NCBI GenBank assembly: GCA_003280225.1
Contig: QCFO01000008.1
Coordinates: 8,637-72,636, forward strand
Source: Prochlorococcus sp. AG-363-K07
Lineage (GTDB): Bacteria > Cyanobacteriota > Cyanobacteriia > PCC-6307 > Cyanobiaceae
DNA: 64,000 nt
Direction of reading: 5' to 3'
Every line of letters starts with the position of its first letter. Positions within the stretch are counted from its first letter, which is position 1. Shown in pieces: positions 14,820 to 40,465 of this stretch. A program made the translations under genes and the position numbers. The notes under the pieces are model-generated. The model searched no databases and had not been told where the DNA came from. It saw nothing but the letters and a program-made list of their open reading frames with translations.

Positions 14820-15088
14820 GCCAATAAATACCCCTATGCAGTAAAGATCCTGTTAGCTAAAGAAGAGCAAATGATCCCCATCACCTGGTCGCTACAACGA
14901 GCTTAGTCGCTGTCAAGGAATTTGTCATCGGCAGAAACACGCTATTTGTGGGGTGACTTCTGTAAATCAACAGAAAAAACACTACTTCTAGGGGGTTGAT
15001 TTTAAACGCAATTTCTCTTAGAAAGTAAGTTCCCCATCACCCAGGTCCGACGCATTTCGCAAGGGCCTTTTTTATTGGATCTAGGCCT
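14820..15088. repeat. Left copy of a ~270-bp inverted repeat pair
   Basis: It is the reverse complement of 16215-16484, with about a dozen differences by eye and an identical run at 14903-15029. There is no long ORF. It contains a CCCCATCACC sub-motif twice and ends in GGGCC-T6 at the inner side. Confidence 0.9.
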
Positions 15089-15176
15089 CTTTCTGAGGAA
15101 AAAACGCTGCGCGTAAACCCGCATAATTCATGTTTACAGACTTTGAATAGATAGGTGATCTGCCAACAGTTGAAGT

Positions 15177-15203
15177 CTCCAACTAAGGAATTGGAGTTTT
15201 CTT
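15177..15203 (+). terminator. Hairpin plus U-tract inside the repeat-bracketed segment
   Basis: The sequence is CTCCAA-ctaaggaa-TTGGAG followed by TTTTCTT. Confidence 0.3.
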
Positions 15204-15541
15204 ACGGCTTATGTAAGCTTCACTTCGTACTTGGCTTGGCAGTTCAAGCGATTTTTTTGAACAAAGATGAAAACCCGAATCAGTTATTTTCTACCAGTAG
15301 GTAATCCAAGGGATTGCTTCATGTTTATTCAAGCCAAGTGTTGGCGCTATTTATAAGGGCGCTCCACGCTAGTCAAATAGTTCACCATAGAGACATAGAT
15401 GATTATGAGGATAATAGAAAGCAGCTATGAAGAGGATAGTTCTACCTTTGATTATCTTTAAAGCAGTTGTATCCCCAGCCAAGTATTAGATTTGTAGCTA
15501 AAAGGCAGGCCACTAATGACAAAGATCAGCAAACCACACCA

Positions 15542-15652
15542 ATGAAAAACTTCCTAAAGAAGTTCTTTGAGCTGTGCAAGGCGTACCAACAAGAGATCCC
15601 CCCACACAAGGTGGCAGAAATCCTTAAAGATTATGCGGACAGGTTGGAGTGA
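15542..15652 (+). CDS. Micro-ORF (36 aa from ATG 15542; ORF opens at TTG 15467)
   Basis: The product MKNFLKKFFELCKAYQQEIPPHKVAEILKDYADRLE is helical and soluble-looking. Its stop TGA overlaps the ATG of the next micro-ORF by 1 nt (TGATG). Confidence 0.3.
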   Translation: MKNFLKKFFELCKAYQQEIPPHKVAEILKDYADRLE

Positions 15653-15780
15653 TGAATCCATTTCTAACTTCCATGGCATTGCTAGCTGTTGCTCTTGCAG
15701 CAATCTCTATTTGGTGGATAAACATAACTCTGAAAGAAGGTAGAAAGGCAGTCGAAGAAAGCAAGGCGGATCTAGATTAA
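15652..15780 (+). CDS. Micro-ORF encoding a 42-aa single-TM peptide
   Basis: Hand translation gives MNPFLTSMALLAVALAAISIWWINITLKEGRKAVEESKADLD. It is coupled to the upstream micro-ORF. Confidence 0.35.
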   Translation: MNPFLTSMALLAVALAAISIWWINITLKEGRKAVEESKADLD

Positions 15781-16090
15781 AAGAATGCGAAAGTACTAGT
15801 TATAACCTGACTATCAAGAATATAGTTATATAGCTGGAAGATTACTAACTTCGTGCAGAAAAATCACAGAAAAATTCTTTAATTCTTAGAATTTACTCAT
15901 ACTAGTTAGAGAATGGCGATCATTCCTGTATCGTCCTATTTTTGAGGTGCTTTGGTTTCAAACTGATTAAAAATCTATTCATTTAATCCAAAAAAGTTGT
16001 TCATACTAACTTTTGCAAGTTATAGAAAAGATCACGATTTGTGCAATTCTCAGAAAAAAGCGGCGAGTTATTGGCTGGGCTGGAGACTGG

Positions 16091-16182
16091 ACAAAAGAAA
16101 ACCCGCCGAAGGCGGGCTCTTGGAGACCCAAAGCAAGTGTTTCCTTGTTGCCACTGCTCGAAGGATCTCAACTCCTCACTAA
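16091..16182 (-). ncRNA. Yfr2-family-like sRNA (copy A)
   Basis: The minus strand reads TAGTGAGGAGTTGAG..GAGCAGTGGCAACAAGGAAACACTTGCT..AGAGCCCGCCttcgGCGGGTTTTCTTTTG. A TATAGT -10-like box sits just upstream. There is a 5' GUGAGGAG motif, a stem-loop exposing GGAAAC, and a GC hairpin plus U-tract terminator. It is alignable over its whole length with 26381-26471. Confidence 0.55.
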
Positions 16183-16214
16183 AACTATAGTTACTTATGG
16201 AATAGCTTTTTGCA

Positions 16215-16484
16215 AGGTCTAGATTCAATAAAAAAGGCCCTTGCGAAATGCGTCGGACCTGGGTGATGGGGAGCTTACTTTCTAAGAGAAATTGCGTTTA
16301 AAATCAACCCCCTAGAAGTAGTGTTTTTTCTGTTGATTTACAGAAGTCACCCCACAAATAGCGTGTTTCTGCCGATGACAAATTCCTTGACAGCGACTAA
16401 TCTCTTTGTAACGACTAGGTGATGGGGATCATTTGCTGTTCTTTAGCTAACAGGATCTTTACTGCATAGGGTCTTTTTATTGGC
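16215..16484. repeat. Right copy of the ~270-bp inverted repeat pair
   Basis: It is the reverse complement of 14820-15088. The outer ends of both copies read GCCAATAAA. The inner ends extend through ATCTAG(G/A)CCT. Confidence 0.9.
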
Positions 16485-21312: not shown

Positions 21313-21975
21313 TTACTTTAACAAATAAGCCCAATTGACATAATGATTAGAATGTCCTAATTGTTTTTGTAGTCTTTTGCTATTTACTTTTATCACCAAA
21401 CCTTCTGCGGGATAATTGTTAAACAAAATTCCATTCTGCCAAAGGTTTAGATATAAGTCGACCTCTGATGTTGTGAATCTTGTGAAGTCTGTCTCAGGGA
21501 TTGAAAAACCTAAGTTCTTTAGCTCTTGAAGTTCTGTATTATGATTTAGATTGCAATTTATAAGTTGGTAACAACAGAAAGACAAGCTCTTCTCATTTGG
21601 AGAAGTAATTCTTATGGTTTCTAATCTGGTTCTTTGAGAATTTAATCTATGTTTATAAAGTTCGCCTCTAACAGCTATTTCTTTTGATATAGGAATCTCA
21701 TTTGGAATAGTTTTAATAATTTGAACCCTATCTAATCCCAGTACTTTCTTATTATGAAATGCTTCTTGAAGAATTCCATTCTTATAGATAAGAATTATTT
21801 GATAACCATTAATTTTTGGCTCAATTATTAAACGCGTATTTGGGAGTAACTGACCATATAGCCACTTTTTATAATTTCCACTTTGGAGTTTTAAAAGTCT
21901 TGTACTTTTTGGATAAGGGCTTTTTTCTTTAATCGGCAATAGGTTTGCTAGAAGGTGATTATAATTTTCGTACAT
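21313..21975 (-). CDS. Stand-alone NAD-dependent DNA ligase (LigA) adenylation/nucleotidyltransferase-domain homolog with divergent motifs
   Basis: It is collinear with E. coli LigA motifs: IIEPKINGYQIILIYKNGIL (KxDG is KING here), IAVRGELY, LSFCCYQL, NLGFSIP and EGLVIKVNSKRLQKQLGHSNHYVNWAYLLK. It ends where the LigA NTase domain ends, with no OB, Zn-finger, HhH or BRCT domain. Confidence 0.75.
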   Translation of the reverse strand: MYENYNHLLANLLPIKEKSPYPKSTRLLKLQSGNYKKWLYGQLLPNTRLIIEPKINGYQIILIYKNGILQEAFHNKKVLGLDRVQIIKTIPNEIPISKEIAVRGELYKHRLNSQRTRLETIRITSPNEKSLSFCCYQLINCNLNHNTELQELKNLGFSIPETDFTRFTTSEVDLYLNLWQNGILFNNYPAEGLVIKVNSKRLQKQLGHSNHYVNWAYLLK

Positions 21976-26222: not shown

Positions 26223-26380
26223 ATAAGACAATTTTTATGAAGTTCTTAACAAGGTCTAGATGAATCCTGGTTTTGAGGGGCCTGTAAAAGTAAATTCAAT
26301 TCCTGTGTGCCAATCTTGTGTGCCAGTTAGATTTGAGCACAATGTCTATTCACTCTCCCTCTTCTTTAGAGATAATGGAT

Positions 26381-26471
26381 TAGTGAGGAGATGAGTTTTC
26401 TTGAGCAGTGGAAACGTGGAAACACTTGCTCGAAATCTCAAAGAAGCCCGCCTTTGGCGGGCTTTCTTATT
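26381..26471 (+). ncRNA. Yfr2-family-like sRNA (copy B)
   Basis: The sequence is TAGTGAGGAGATGAG..GAGCAGTGGAAACGTGGAAACACTTGCTC..AGCCCGCCtttgGCGGGCTTTCTTATT. A GATAAT -10-like box lies at 26371-26376. The stem GAGCA.TG/CA.TGCTC exposes two GGAAAC repeats, and a GC hairpin plus U-tract follows. Confidence 0.55.
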
Positions 26472-40295: not shown

Positions 40296-40392
40296 TTCTT
40301 TTTTATTTTTCTTATAAACATTGAAGTTCTAGGTGGAAATTTAATGTTGTAAATAATTACCTTAAATTAATATTGTAATTAATGTAATGGAT

Positions 40393-40465
40393 CGGAGCGG
40401 CGGGATTTGAACCCACGACCCCCACTACCCCAAAGTGGTGCGCTACCAAGCTGCGCCACGCCCCG
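40393..40465 (-). tRNA. tRNA-Pro (anticodon GGG)
   Basis: The minus strand folds by hand into a cloverleaf. The acceptor is CGGGGCG/CGCTCCG and the D arm is GCGC-AGCTTGGTA-GCGC. The anticodon arm is CCACT-TTGGGGT-AGTGG and the T arm is GTGGG-TTCAAAT-CCCGC. CCA is not encoded. Confidence 0.9.

What the first reader, a model, noticed from the sequence alone, without database searches (positions are those of the whole stretch)
14820..16484. Two ~270-bp near-identical inverted repeats bracketing a 1.1-kb segment: possible invertible cassette, MITE-like element pair or unknown structured-RNA paralogs
Seen:
- 14820-15088 is the reverse complement of 16215-16484.
- By eye there are about a dozen differences. 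They cluster in a 16-nt patch (14887-14902) and at the ends, while 14903-15029 is identical.
- Neither copy has a meaningful ORF.
- Each copy has self-complementary ends (CCAATAAA ... TTTATTGG).
- Each carries CCCCATCACC-(N2-3)-GGTC twice.
- Each ends on its inner side with GGGCC followed by T6, so both could be transcribed convergently toward the centre.
- I could not match them to tRNA, tmRNA, RNase P, SRP, 6S or any riboswitch consensus I know.
- The 1126-bp spacer carries two coupled micro-ORFs, a hairpin terminator and a Yfr2-like sRNA.

Inference, three readings:
(a) Repeats this long and this similar are substrates for RecA-mediated inversion, which would flip the cassette relative to the flanking promoters.
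(b) They are two insertions of a non-autonomous mobile element.
(c) They are duplicated genes for a ~260-nt structured RNA maintained by gene conversion.
Basis: seen in the sequence. Interest (0 to 1): 0.75.

Follow-up and report, generated by a model that had tools for sequence, protein, structure and literature searches.

The report
Duplicated small-RNA locus in Prochlorococcus island
The two inverted 270-bp repeats are a recent duplicate pair of a small non-coding-RNA locus that is conserved across marine Prochlorococcus and Synechococcus but absent from RNA databases; it is neither a jumping element nor a demonstrated DNA switch.

Summary
The inverted repeat is real: about 270 bp per arm, 96-97% identical, 1126 bp apart, and only two copies in the window.

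It is not an isolated oddity. About 50 homologous elements turned up in Prochlorococcus single-cell genomes, strain MIT 0916, marine Synechococcus and ocean metagenomes. Every other locus examined holds one copy; only this window has an inverted pair.

Comparison suggests each arm holds two back-to-back transcription units rather than one 260-nt RNA.
- **G-loop sRNA, well supported.** It has a conserved TAnnnT -10 box, a covarying 5' hairpin with loop GGUGAUGGGGAU, and its own terminator.
- **C-box unit, weaker.** It carries the complementary box AUCCCCAUCACC(C).

The likely function is a base-pairing sRNA and partner-RNA pair. This is inferred, not shown.

The window copies look partly decayed. 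The right arm keeps the ancestral position next to Yfr2, so the left arm is probably the derived copy.

There is no Rfam match, and the element is not Yfr6. I found no recombinase, no target-site duplication, no multi-copy spread and no conserved ORF.

The parts
14820..15091 (+). Left arm: one copy of the conserved locus. Orientation is given as that of the C-box unit.
   Evidence: Family profile hit at 14822-15094, E = 8e-62.
16212..16484 (-). Right arm: second copy, inverted. Probably the ancestral one, because it keeps the element-then-Yfr2 arrangement.
   Evidence: The same element-then-Yfr2 order occurs in L095 and L142.
14822..14893 (-). Predicted G-loop sRNA gene of the left arm (start about 14893, end in the degenerate U-run at 14821-14830).
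   Evidence: Start inferred from the conserved -10 box. The window copy folds poorly (z = +0.58), and its terminator hairpin stem is lost.
16410..16481 (+). Predicted G-loop sRNA gene of the right arm.
   Evidence: z = -1.48. Only a weak 4-bp terminator stem remains, followed by UUUUUAUU.
14900..14905 (-). -10 box TAAGCT of the left-arm G-loop sRNA. The -35-like ATGACA lies at 14923-14928 with a 17-nt spacer.
   Evidence: TAnnnT sits at this position in 41 of 42 distinct family members. T1, A2 and T6 never change while the middle bases vary.
16398..16403 (+). -10 box TAATCT of the right-arm G-loop sRNA. The -35-like ATGACA lies at 16375-16380.
   Evidence: The arms differ inside the hexamer (C versus A), but the T1, A2 and T6 positions are kept.
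14865..14890 (-). Hairpin H1 of the left arm. Its loop is GGUGAUGGGGAU, the complement of box 1 at 14874-14885.
   Evidence: Covariation in alignment A5. The left arm keeps 4 of 5 outer pairs (read from the sequence).
16413..16438 (+). Hairpin H1 of the right arm (box 1 at 16418-16429).
   Evidence: Only 3 of 5 outer pairs remain.
14912..14940 (.). Conserved block GTCAAGnnnTTTGTCATCGGCAGAAACAC between the two units (mirror at 16363-16391). Probably a shared promoter or regulatory region.
   Evidence: Nearly invariant in the window-like subfamily. Used as a box-independent search pattern.
14948..14965 (+). Small hairpin UUCUGU/ACAGAA (mirror at 16338-16355), a candidate 5' hairpin of the C-box unit.
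   Evidence: Hairpins with different stem sequences sit at the same place in relatives: CUUAUA/UAUAAG, UGCAU/AUGCA.
14991..15003 (+). G-run GGGGGTTGATTTT (mirror at 16300-16312).
   Evidence: GGG-TTG is nearly invariant across the family. It can pair with the C-run of box 2 in folds of relatives.
15030..15041 (+). Box 2, TTCCCCATCACC (mirror at 16262-16273). Complementary to the H1 loop.
   Evidence: Conserved in 8 of 9 contigs that were found without using the box.
15043..15073 (+). Intrinsic terminator of the C-box unit: stem AGGTCC...GGGCCT followed by T6, then ATTGG (mirror at 16230-16260).
   Evidence: Helix with G-U and U-G pairs on this strand, followed by a T-run.
16118..16185 (-). Yfr2-family sRNA (Rfam Cyano-1), with its terminator at 16098-16120, directly downstream of the right arm.
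15542..15780 (+). Two overlapping micro-ORFs in the spacer (36/61 aa and 43 aa). The second encodes a hydrophobic peptide.
   Evidence: Part of the second ORF is 78% identical to a stretch 2 kb downstream of the element in L025. No exact database record for either.

Best explanation
Each arm is one copy of a conserved, un-annotated non-coding locus of marine picocyanobacteria. The window's lineage duplicated it recently, in inverted orientation.

The locus appears to hold two small transcription units placed back to back.

It is a ~55-75 nt sRNA gene with a sigma-70-type promoter (TAnnnT, with a -35-like hexamer 17 nt upstream). Its 5' hairpin presents GGUGAUGGGGAU, with GGGG at the tip, and it ends in a short intrinsic terminator.

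It ends at the GGGCC-T6 terminator and carries the box (G)AUCCCCAUCACCC just in front of that terminator, where the box overlaps the first bases of the stem.

Because the two boxes are direct repeats read from opposite strands, the loop of unit 1 is perfectly complementary to box 2 of unit 2 over 14-17 nt. The most likely mechanism is therefore RNA-RNA pairing between the two products. This could be a sponge or antagonist relationship, or control of the box-2 terminator. The G-loop sRNA may also act on other C-box RNAs.

What is shown: homology, promoter and terminator signatures, helix covariation and strand polarity. What is inferred: that both units are transcribed, that they pair, and what that does.

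In this window both copies have lost the terminator hairpin of unit 1, have a weakened 5' hairpin, and lack the candidate -10 box of unit 2. They may be partly decayed.
For: Family and distribution:
- A pattern scan plus profile search found 41 homologues. All are in Prochlorococcus or marine Synechococcus, including complete genomes MIT 0916 (two diverged paralogues) and WH 8017.
- Nine more came from metagenomes using a pattern that does not include the boxes. Box 1 was exact in 9 of 9 and box 2 in 8 of 9.

Unit 1, the G-loop sRNA:
- TAnnnT lies 17-22 nt upstream of GGTGATGGGG in 41 of 42 distinct members, with variable middle bases. These correspond to the family-wide invariant columns A89, T93 and A94.
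- Hairpin H1 pairs in 88.9% of cells, 4 pairs change on both sides, and 0 of 500 shuffles reach the covariation score. Sliding the partner columns drops pairing to 22-47%.
- Folding energy favours the opposite strand for H1 in 47 of 47 members and for the outer hairpin in 24 of 25.
- Predicted sRNAs from four relatives fold as two-hairpin RNAs with z = -2.3 to -4.2.

Unit 2, the C-box unit:
- TATRGT sits 83-84 nt before box 2 in 16 of 20 subfamily members, and AATAGT sits at -85 in Synechococcus.

Duplication:
- The arms are 96% identical to each other but only about 80% identical to the nearest relatives.
- The right arm shares the element-then-Yfr2 order with L095 and L142.
Against: - No expression data were available for either unit.
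- Unit 2 is weak. Its start is uncertain, its folds are near background (z = -0.6 to -1.8), and its terminator shows no strand preference in folding energy.
- The invariance of the boxes in the 41 genome-derived members is partly built in, because the search pattern required both boxes.
- The G-rich strand tends to fold better in general, which inflates the energy asymmetry.
- The window copies fold poorly as unit 1 (z = +0.58 and -1.48), so the locus may not be functional here.
- One or both RNAs may already carry a Yfr number from transcriptome studies whose sequences I could not obtain.
Confidence: 0.55

Rival explanations
1. One ~250-nt structured RNA per arm on the reader's strand. It would run from the CCAATAAA end to the T6 terminator, with the two copies transcribed convergently.
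For: There is a terminator on that strand. The ends can pair (CCAAUAAA with UUUAUUGG in the minimum-energy fold). Both ends change together in some relatives (L077 and L025).
Against: - Fold energy is at background (z = -0.9).
- No consistent promoter lies upstream of box 1, especially in Synechococcus (sequence inspection).
- The 5' hairpins carry G-U pairs that work only on the other strand.
- An invariant -10 box points the other way.
Confidence: 0.13
2. A fully or largely overlapping sense/antisense pair, of the kind reported for Prochlorococcus MED4 (Yfr6/Yfr14 and Yfr8/Yfr9). It could be a type I toxin-antitoxin system with a short peptide on one strand.
For: Outward-facing terminators sit on both strands. 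A 33-aa frame is open on the opposite strand in the window and several relatives. Such pairs were described as toxin-antitoxin candidates in MED4 (PMC2518516).
Against: - The frame is not conserved. There is a stop in L146 and frameshifts in L142, L147, L141 and L143, and no frame at all in the LLI or Synechococcus members.
- Differences are equal at all three codon positions (0.46, 0.50, 0.47).
- Box-to-box spacing takes all three values modulo 3.
- A peptide profile finds only 3 database proteins.
- The published Yfr6 sequence and peptide are unrelated.
Confidence: 0.08
3. The boxes are DNA sites for a protein, and the conservation reflects an operator or similar element rather than RNA. Two direct 12-14 bp boxes lie about 157 bp apart, and each is partly palindromic (TGAT-CCCC-ATCA).
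For: Box-to-box spacing is fairly constant at 145-159 bp. Each box contains a short inverted repeat. A block between the boxes is conserved at the DNA level.
Against: - The stems flanking box 1 covary and include G-U pairs, which is an RNA signature.
- The asymmetric CCCC core always has the same orientation.
- Terminators and a -10 box frame the boxes as parts of transcripts.
Confidence: 0.08
4. A functional invertible cassette. Recombination between the arms would flip the 1.1-kb segment carrying Yfr2 and the micro-ORFs relative to outside promoters.
For: The inverted arms contain 127 bp of perfect identity, enough for homologous recombination by general knowledge of RecA.
Against: - There is no invertase or recombinase gene within about 7 kb.
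- The pair exists only in this genome; all 50 other loci are single copy.
- The spacer content matches what lies downstream of the single-copy element in relatives, namely Yfr2 and a micro-ORF homologue.
- The junction was not found in metagenomes, so orientation variants could not be examined.
Confidence: 0.07
5. Two insertions of a non-autonomous mobile element (MITE-like).
For: The ends are imperfect A/T-rich inverted repeats, CCAATAAAAAA and TTTTTTATTGG. The duplicated unit has sharp boundaries.
Against: - There is no target-site duplication at either arm (sequence).
- Genomes carry one or two copies.
- Type A and type B copies sit at conserved syntenic sites across LLI genomes and a 31% GC genome.
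- Homologues exist in 60% GC Synechococcus with only the functional motifs kept.
- There is no match among phage records.
- The inverted ends are explained by outward-facing terminators.
Confidence: 0.04

Closest known systems
Yfr1 / Yfr2 (Rfam Cyano-1) sRNAs of cyanobacteria
   Same: These are short sRNAs of marine picocyanobacteria with their own promoter and intrinsic terminator, often in genomic islands. Yfr1 and Yfr2 carry nearly complementary conserved motifs that suggest crosstalk (PMC6778093 abstract). A Yfr2 gene sits directly downstream of the right arm.
   Different: The sequence motifs differ: GGUGAUGGGGAU and AUCCCCAUCACC here, against ACUCCUCACAC and GUGAGGAG. The arms do not match Cyano-1 or any other Rfam model. 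Here the two complementary partners are encoded side by side.
Yfr6/Yfr14 and Yfr8/Yfr9 overlapping ncRNA pairs of Prochlorococcus MED4
   Same: Both involve paired transcripts from opposite strands of one ~250-330 bp island locus. The MED4 pairs were proposed as toxin-antitoxin-like (PMC2518516). A truncated NAD-ligase gene lies nearby both in MED4 and in this window.
   Different: The published Yfr6 5' sequence (CGTTCACC...GGAACGGGGAC) and its LTYRG peptide are unrelated to the arms. No conserved peptide exists here. The units here look divergent rather than extensively overlapping.
Antisense-RNA pairs that use direct repeats read from opposite strands (par/Fst RNA I-RNA II of pAD1; divergent tisB/istR-1 and zor/orz loci)
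   Same: In these systems, complementarity between neighbouring transcripts arises from short repeated sequences, and initial contact is between hairpin loops. This comparison is from my own knowledge and was not tested here.
   Different: No toxin ORF is present. In this element the complementary box sits at the 3' terminator of the partner, not in a 5' UTR. No functional data exist.
Miniature inverted-repeat transposable elements (MITEs)
   Same: Size of about 270 bp, no coding capacity, and short inverted ends.
   Different: Low copy number, no target-site duplication, vertical and syntenic conservation across genera, and internal promoter, hairpin and terminator signatures.

Membership tests
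Rfam families (all 4227, including Cyano-1/Yfr2, Cyano-2, 6S, tmRNA, RNase P, riboswitches) | Score at or above the family's gathering threshold against the covariance model. | tested here: not met
   No hit on either arm at the gathering threshold or at E <= 10. None on 29 homologous loci or on a Synechococcus member at E <= 10.
Yfr6 (Prochlorococcus MED4/SS120) | A 5' region CGTTCACC...GGAACGGGGAC followed by a 33-aa LTYRG-repeat peptide. | tested here: not met
   Published alignment read. The arms contain neither motif, and Rfam Glutamine-II (the same motif class) does not hit the window. The 33-aa frame in the arms encodes an unrelated, unconserved peptide.
Yfr106-108 (NATL2A sRNAs) | Sequence identity to the published probe sequences. 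| tested here: not met
   The probe and primer sequences share no similarity with the element, and the box is absent from all 11 supplementary files.
Other numbered Yfr RNAs (e.g. Yfr13; MIT9313 Yfr1xx) | Sequence identity to the mapped transcript. | not testable with these tools
   The sequences are not in the papers held, and Voigt 2014 is not held. The box is absent from the Steglich 2008 supplements.
Bacterial trans-acting sRNA gene | Own sigma-70-type promoter. | tested here: met
   TAnnnT in 41 of 42 members at a fixed distance. -35-like ATGACA, TTGCCT or TTGCGT lies 17 nt upstream (sequence inspection). This is a consensus match only; no start site has been mapped.
Bacterial trans-acting sRNA gene | Intrinsic terminator: GC hairpin followed by a U-run. 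| tested here: met
Present in most family members on both outward-facing sides.
Bacterial trans-acting sRNA gene | Conserved structure with covariation. | tested here: met
   H1 helix: 4 of 9 pairs change on both sides, and 0 of 500 shuffles reach the score. The rest of the element is inconclusive.
Bacterial trans-acting sRNA gene | Detected transcript. | not testable with these tools
   No expression data are available here.
MITE / non-autonomous transposon | Terminal inverted repeats. | tested here: inconclusive
   There are 8-11 nt A/T-rich imperfect inverted ends, but these are equally explained by outward-facing terminators.
MITE / non-autonomous transposon | Target-site duplication. | tested here: not met
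   The flanks of both arms share no direct repeat.
MITE / non-autonomous transposon | Many dispersed, near-identical copies. | tested here: not met
   Two copies in the window. Every other locus is single copy, with one or two diverged paralogues per genome.
Site-specific invertible DNA switch | Adjacent invertase or recombinase gene. | tested here: not met
   Pfam scan of ten ORFs between 11.5 and 22 kb found none.
Site-specific invertible DNA switch | Both orientations observed. | tested here: inconclusive
   The junction search in metagenomes returned nothing, and exact-protein look-ups found no other assembly.
Type I toxin-antitoxin | Conserved short hydrophobic toxin ORF. | tested here: not met

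The most novel reading that the evidence does not exclude
A previously undescribed pair of mutually complementary small RNAs, conserved from marine Synechococcus to high- and low-light Prochlorococcus. The two are encoded back to back as a single ~270-bp module. One is a ~60-nt sRNA whose hairpin presents a GGGG-tipped loop. The other is a partner RNA with a CCCC box abutting its terminator. Together they would form a self-contained sRNA/anti-sRNA or sRNA-controlled-terminator circuit in genomes that have very few protein regulators.
Probability: 0.3. Interest if true: 0.65.

Novelty: new member of a known kind. Interest (0 to 1): 0.45.

Why it matters
Prochlorococcus and marine Synechococcus have few regulatory proteins and rely heavily on small RNAs, yet only Yfr1 and the Yfr2 family are regarded as broadly conserved. 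If confirmed, a further sRNA locus shared across both genera would add a regulator to these globally important phototrophs, especially one with a built-in complementary partner that sits in genomic islands next to Yfr2, hli and PTOX genes. It would also give a simple system for studying sRNA antagonism.

For this window specifically, the result turns an apparent mobile or invertible element into an ordinary recent gene duplication.

Tried and rejected
- **Rfam.** Searched at gathering and permissive thresholds on the window and 30 homologous loci. Only Cyano-1, tRNA and Glutamine-II hits outside the arms.
- **tRNA/tmRNA.** ARAGORN found nothing in the arms.
- **Phage records.** No match by BLAST. 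The one IMG/VR hit (L005) is an ordinary LLI type-A host locus.
- **Literature search for the box sequence.** Only unrelated papers turned up. The box is absent from the supplements of three Prochlorococcus sRNA papers.
- **Yfr6 identity.** I suspected this because of the 244-nt length, the 33-aa ORF and a nearby ligase fragment. I rejected it after reading the published alignment.
- **Small-protein hypothesis.** Rejected.
- **Whole-element consensus structure.** RNAalifold recovered only the terminator across the whole family, because the middle region does not align between subfamilies. A long-range box 1 to G-run helix predicted within the subfamily has no variation to test it.
- **A second -10 box inside the right-hand terminator.** Seen in LLI types but not conserved elsewhere, so dropped.
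Full report
**1. The observation**

The inverted repeat exists as described.
- The repeat finder reports arms 14832-15088 and 16215-16471: 257 nt, 97% complementary, 1126 nt apart.
- BLAST and nhmmer extend the similarity to 14820-15095 versus 16484-16215, 95.9% over 270 nt, and find no third copy in the window.
- The pairwise alignment confirms that the differences cluster at 14887-14902 and at the ends, while 14903-15029 is identical.
- The spacer carries a Yfr2-family sRNA (Rfam Cyano-1, 16118-16185 minus strand), its terminator and two overlapping micro-ORFs.

The window is low in GC (about 38%) and gene-poor between 4 and 26 kb. It looks like a Prochlorococcus genomic island. Genes for DUF1651, rubredoxin, a LOG-family protein, an SRAP peptidase and a truncated NAD-ligase surround the repeat, and no recombinase is present.

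**2. The arms belong to a conserved family**

The motif TCCCCATCACC occurs twice per arm, 157 nt apart. Scanning one genome per species for two such motifs 130-160 nt apart returned 118 loci.
- A profile built from the arms matched 41 of them. All are Prochlorococcus or marine Synechococcus.
- They include the complete genomes MIT 0916, with two diverged paralogues about 16 kb apart, and Synechococcus WH 8017.
- The remaining loci were chance or unrelated matches.

The family has several subfamilies.
- A "window-like" group is about 70-80% identical to the arms (L053, L133, L025, L050, L077, L095, L067, L128, L023).
- Types A and B occur in low-light clade I (LLI) genomes. Each sits at a conserved syntenic site among hli, PTOX, histone-like, SRAP and nuclease genes.
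- Type A is also present in a 31% GC single-cell genome, probably high-light adapted.
- Synechococcus members have 60% GC.

Every locus outside the window holds a single copy.

Because the first scan required both boxes, I ran a second scan on metagenomes with a pattern taken from the middle of the element. It gave nine contigs. Box 1 was exact in all nine and box 2 in eight, so box conservation is not just an effect of how the sequences were collected.

**3. Anatomy**

- CAAT, an A-run of 6-7, and a GC hairpin.
- About 12 nt of linker.
- A stem enclosing box 1, (G)ATCCCCATCAC.
- About 15-20 nt, then three invariant bases in the pattern A...TA.
- A region conserved only within subfamilies.
- A short variable hairpin and a G-run (GGGGTTG).
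- TTAGAAATAAG.
- Box 2, TCCCCATCACCC.
- A GC hairpin, T6 and ATTG.

The two ends mirror each other because each is a hairpin with a U-run facing outward.

**4. A small RNA on the other strand**

- It lies 17-22 nt upstream of GGTGATGGGG in 41 of 42 distinct members.
- The three middle bases vary freely (TAGTAT, TATTAT, TAGTGT, TATGGT, TATCGT, TACTCT and others).
- A -35-like hexamer (ATGACA, TTGCCT or TTGCGT) sits 17 nt further upstream in Prochlorococcus (sequence inspection).

Downstream of this promoter comes a hairpin, H1.
- Its outer stem covaries: CCGG/CCGG, UCGG/CCGA, ACUG/CAGU, GCUG/CAGC.
- On an ungapped 35-sequence alignment, 88.9% of cells pair, 4 of 9 pairs change on both sides, and no shuffle out of 500 reaches the covariation score. 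Sliding the partner columns drops pairing to 22-47%.
- One pair is G-U in 15 sequences, A-U in 10 and G-C in 9.
- Folding energies favour the opposite strand for H1 in 47 of 47 members and for the outer hairpin in 24 of 25. G-rich strands fold somewhat better in general, so this measure is supportive rather than decisive.

The predicted ~56-68 nt RNAs from four relatives fold into a classic two-hairpin sRNA with z-scores of -2.3 to -4.2. I call this unit the G-loop sRNA. Its hairpin presents GGUGAUGGGGAU, with GGGG at the tip of a UGAU/AUCA stem.

**5.

Its helix has G-U and U-G pairs on that strand and is followed by a T-run, although folding energy shows no strand preference.

Box 2 lies immediately before this terminator and overlaps the first bases of its stem.

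A -10-like hexamer recurs 83-85 nt before box 2: TATRGT in 16 of 20 window-like members, TAGATT or TATGTT in others, and AATAGT in Synechococcus. A small hairpin with differing stem sequences follows it. This suggests a ~105-135 nt RNA, but its folds are near background (z = -0.6 to -1.8) and its start is unproven.

The block GTCAAGnnATTTGTCATCGGTAGAWACAC lies between the two putative promoters. It is conserved at the DNA level without any sign of structure, as a shared regulatory region would be.

**6. How it probably works**

The two boxes are direct repeats, but they are read from opposite strands. The G-loop sRNA is therefore perfectly complementary to box 2 of the neighbouring unit. The match is 17 nt in LLI type A (AGAUCCCCAUCACCCAG), 16 nt in Synechococcus and 14 nt in the window-like group (sequence comparison).

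The most economical reading is an RNA-RNA partnership.
- Contact would begin between the GGGG loop and the CCCC box and extend into a duplex.
- This would either neutralise one partner or interfere with the terminator that box 2 abuts.
- In folds of relatives, the G-run inside the C-box unit can pair with box 2. That would make box 2 conditionally available.

Some relatives carry an extra, separate copy of a G-loop-type hairpin plus terminator nearby (AGTGATCCCCATCACT; L077, L133, L144, L147, L149). This suggests the module is reused. All of the mechanism is inference; no expression or binding data were available.

**7. What the window copies look like**

Both arms keep the boxes, the -35/-10 of the G-loop sRNA (TAAGCT and TAATCT, with T1, A2 and T6 intact) and the inner terminator.

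Several elements are damaged in both arms:
- The outer hairpin stem is destroyed (GATCC where relatives have GAGGC).
- H1 is weakened, with 4 of 5 outer pairs left in the left arm and 3 of 5 in the right.
- The candidate -10 of the C-box unit reads TGTGGG.

The predicted G-loop sRNAs fold at z = +0.58 and -1.48.

The arms are far more similar to each other (96%) than to any relative (about 80% or less). The pair therefore arose recently, or the copies are kept alike by gene conversion.

The right arm is followed by Yfr2 in the same orientation, as in L095 and L142. A micro-ORF homologue lies downstream of the single-copy element in L025. The right arm and the spacer thus represent the ancestral arrangement, and the left arm is the added copy.

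**8. Alternatives**

- **MITE.** Excluded by low copy number, absence of target-site duplications, synteny, and conservation across genera.
- **Conserved peptide.** Excluded. The 33-aa frame on the opposite strand is broken by a stop or frameshifts in five of nine new members and is absent from other subfamilies. Codon positions vary equally, box spacing is not a multiple of three, and a peptide profile finds only three database entries.
- **Yfr6.** This looked possible from its length, its 33-aa ORF and a neighbouring ligase fragment. The published Yfr6 alignment shows a glutamine-riboswitch-like leader and an LTYRG peptide, both unrelated to the arms.
- **Functional invertible switch.** No support: no recombinase, and the pair is unique to this genome. 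It could not be tested directly, because a metagenome search for the left junction returned nothing.
- **Protein-binding DNA sites.** Cannot be excluded, but G-U-containing covarying stems point to RNA.

**9. Novelty**

No Rfam family matches the arms. I found no description in the literature available here.

I could not compare the element with every numbered Yfr RNA from transcriptome papers. The conservative label is therefore a new member of a known kind, bacterial sRNA genes. There remains a possibility that the adjacent complementary pair is a new arrangement.

Noticed in passing
window 26377-26444 (+): A second Yfr2-family sRNA (Rfam Cyano-1, 43.3 bits), about 10 kb from the one in the spacer.
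   Followed up: partly
window 21316-21975 (-): A 220-aa ORF with only the adenylation domain of NAD-dependent DNA ligase. Similar ~228-aa fragments recur in related island regions (P0005-P0021), and one lies 3.2 kb from the element in L139. MED4 has a comparable ligase fragment next to yfr6.
   Followed up: partly
L077:12-22, L133:1113-1123, L144:910-920, L147:200-210, L149:553-563: A separate conserved unit near the element in some relatives: a hairpin AGTGAT-CCCC-ATCACT next to an A-run plus GC hairpin. Read on the other strand, it is a G-loop hairpin followed by a terminator, so it looks like a solo paralogue of the G-loop sRNA. None is present in the window.
   Followed up: partly
L093:216-274 (-) and L101:7166-7228 (-): Glutamine-II riboswitch aptamers. 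The one in the L093 Synechococcus locus lies about 100 nt from the outer end of the element.
   Followed up: no
window 15649-15780 (+): A 43-aa hydrophobic micro-ORF (MMNPFLTSMALLAVALAAISIWWINITLKEGRK...) overlapping the stop of the preceding micro-ORF. Part of it is 78% identical at the DNA level to L025:3344-3436.
   Followed up: partly
window 4000-26000: A long stretch with few ORFs over 100 aa and several sRNA genes, typical of a picocyanobacterial genomic island. tRNA-Pro (GGG) lies at 40392-40465.
   Followed up: no
L042, L070, L064, L112 (Okeania) and L045, L065, L068: The two-box search pattern also hit arrays with a strict 157-158 nt period in Okeania and in some uncultured bacteria. 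These are unrelated to the family by profile and may be CRISPR-like or tandem arrays.
   Followed up: no
Lott et al. 2020 supplementary table: Unnamed NATL2A candidate sRNAs are listed at 1591379-1591508 (+, 129 nt, 78 reads) and 1591440-1591503 (-, 63 nt). Their sizes resemble the two predicted units, but the coordinates overlap, and I could not check the NATL2A sequence.
   Followed up: no
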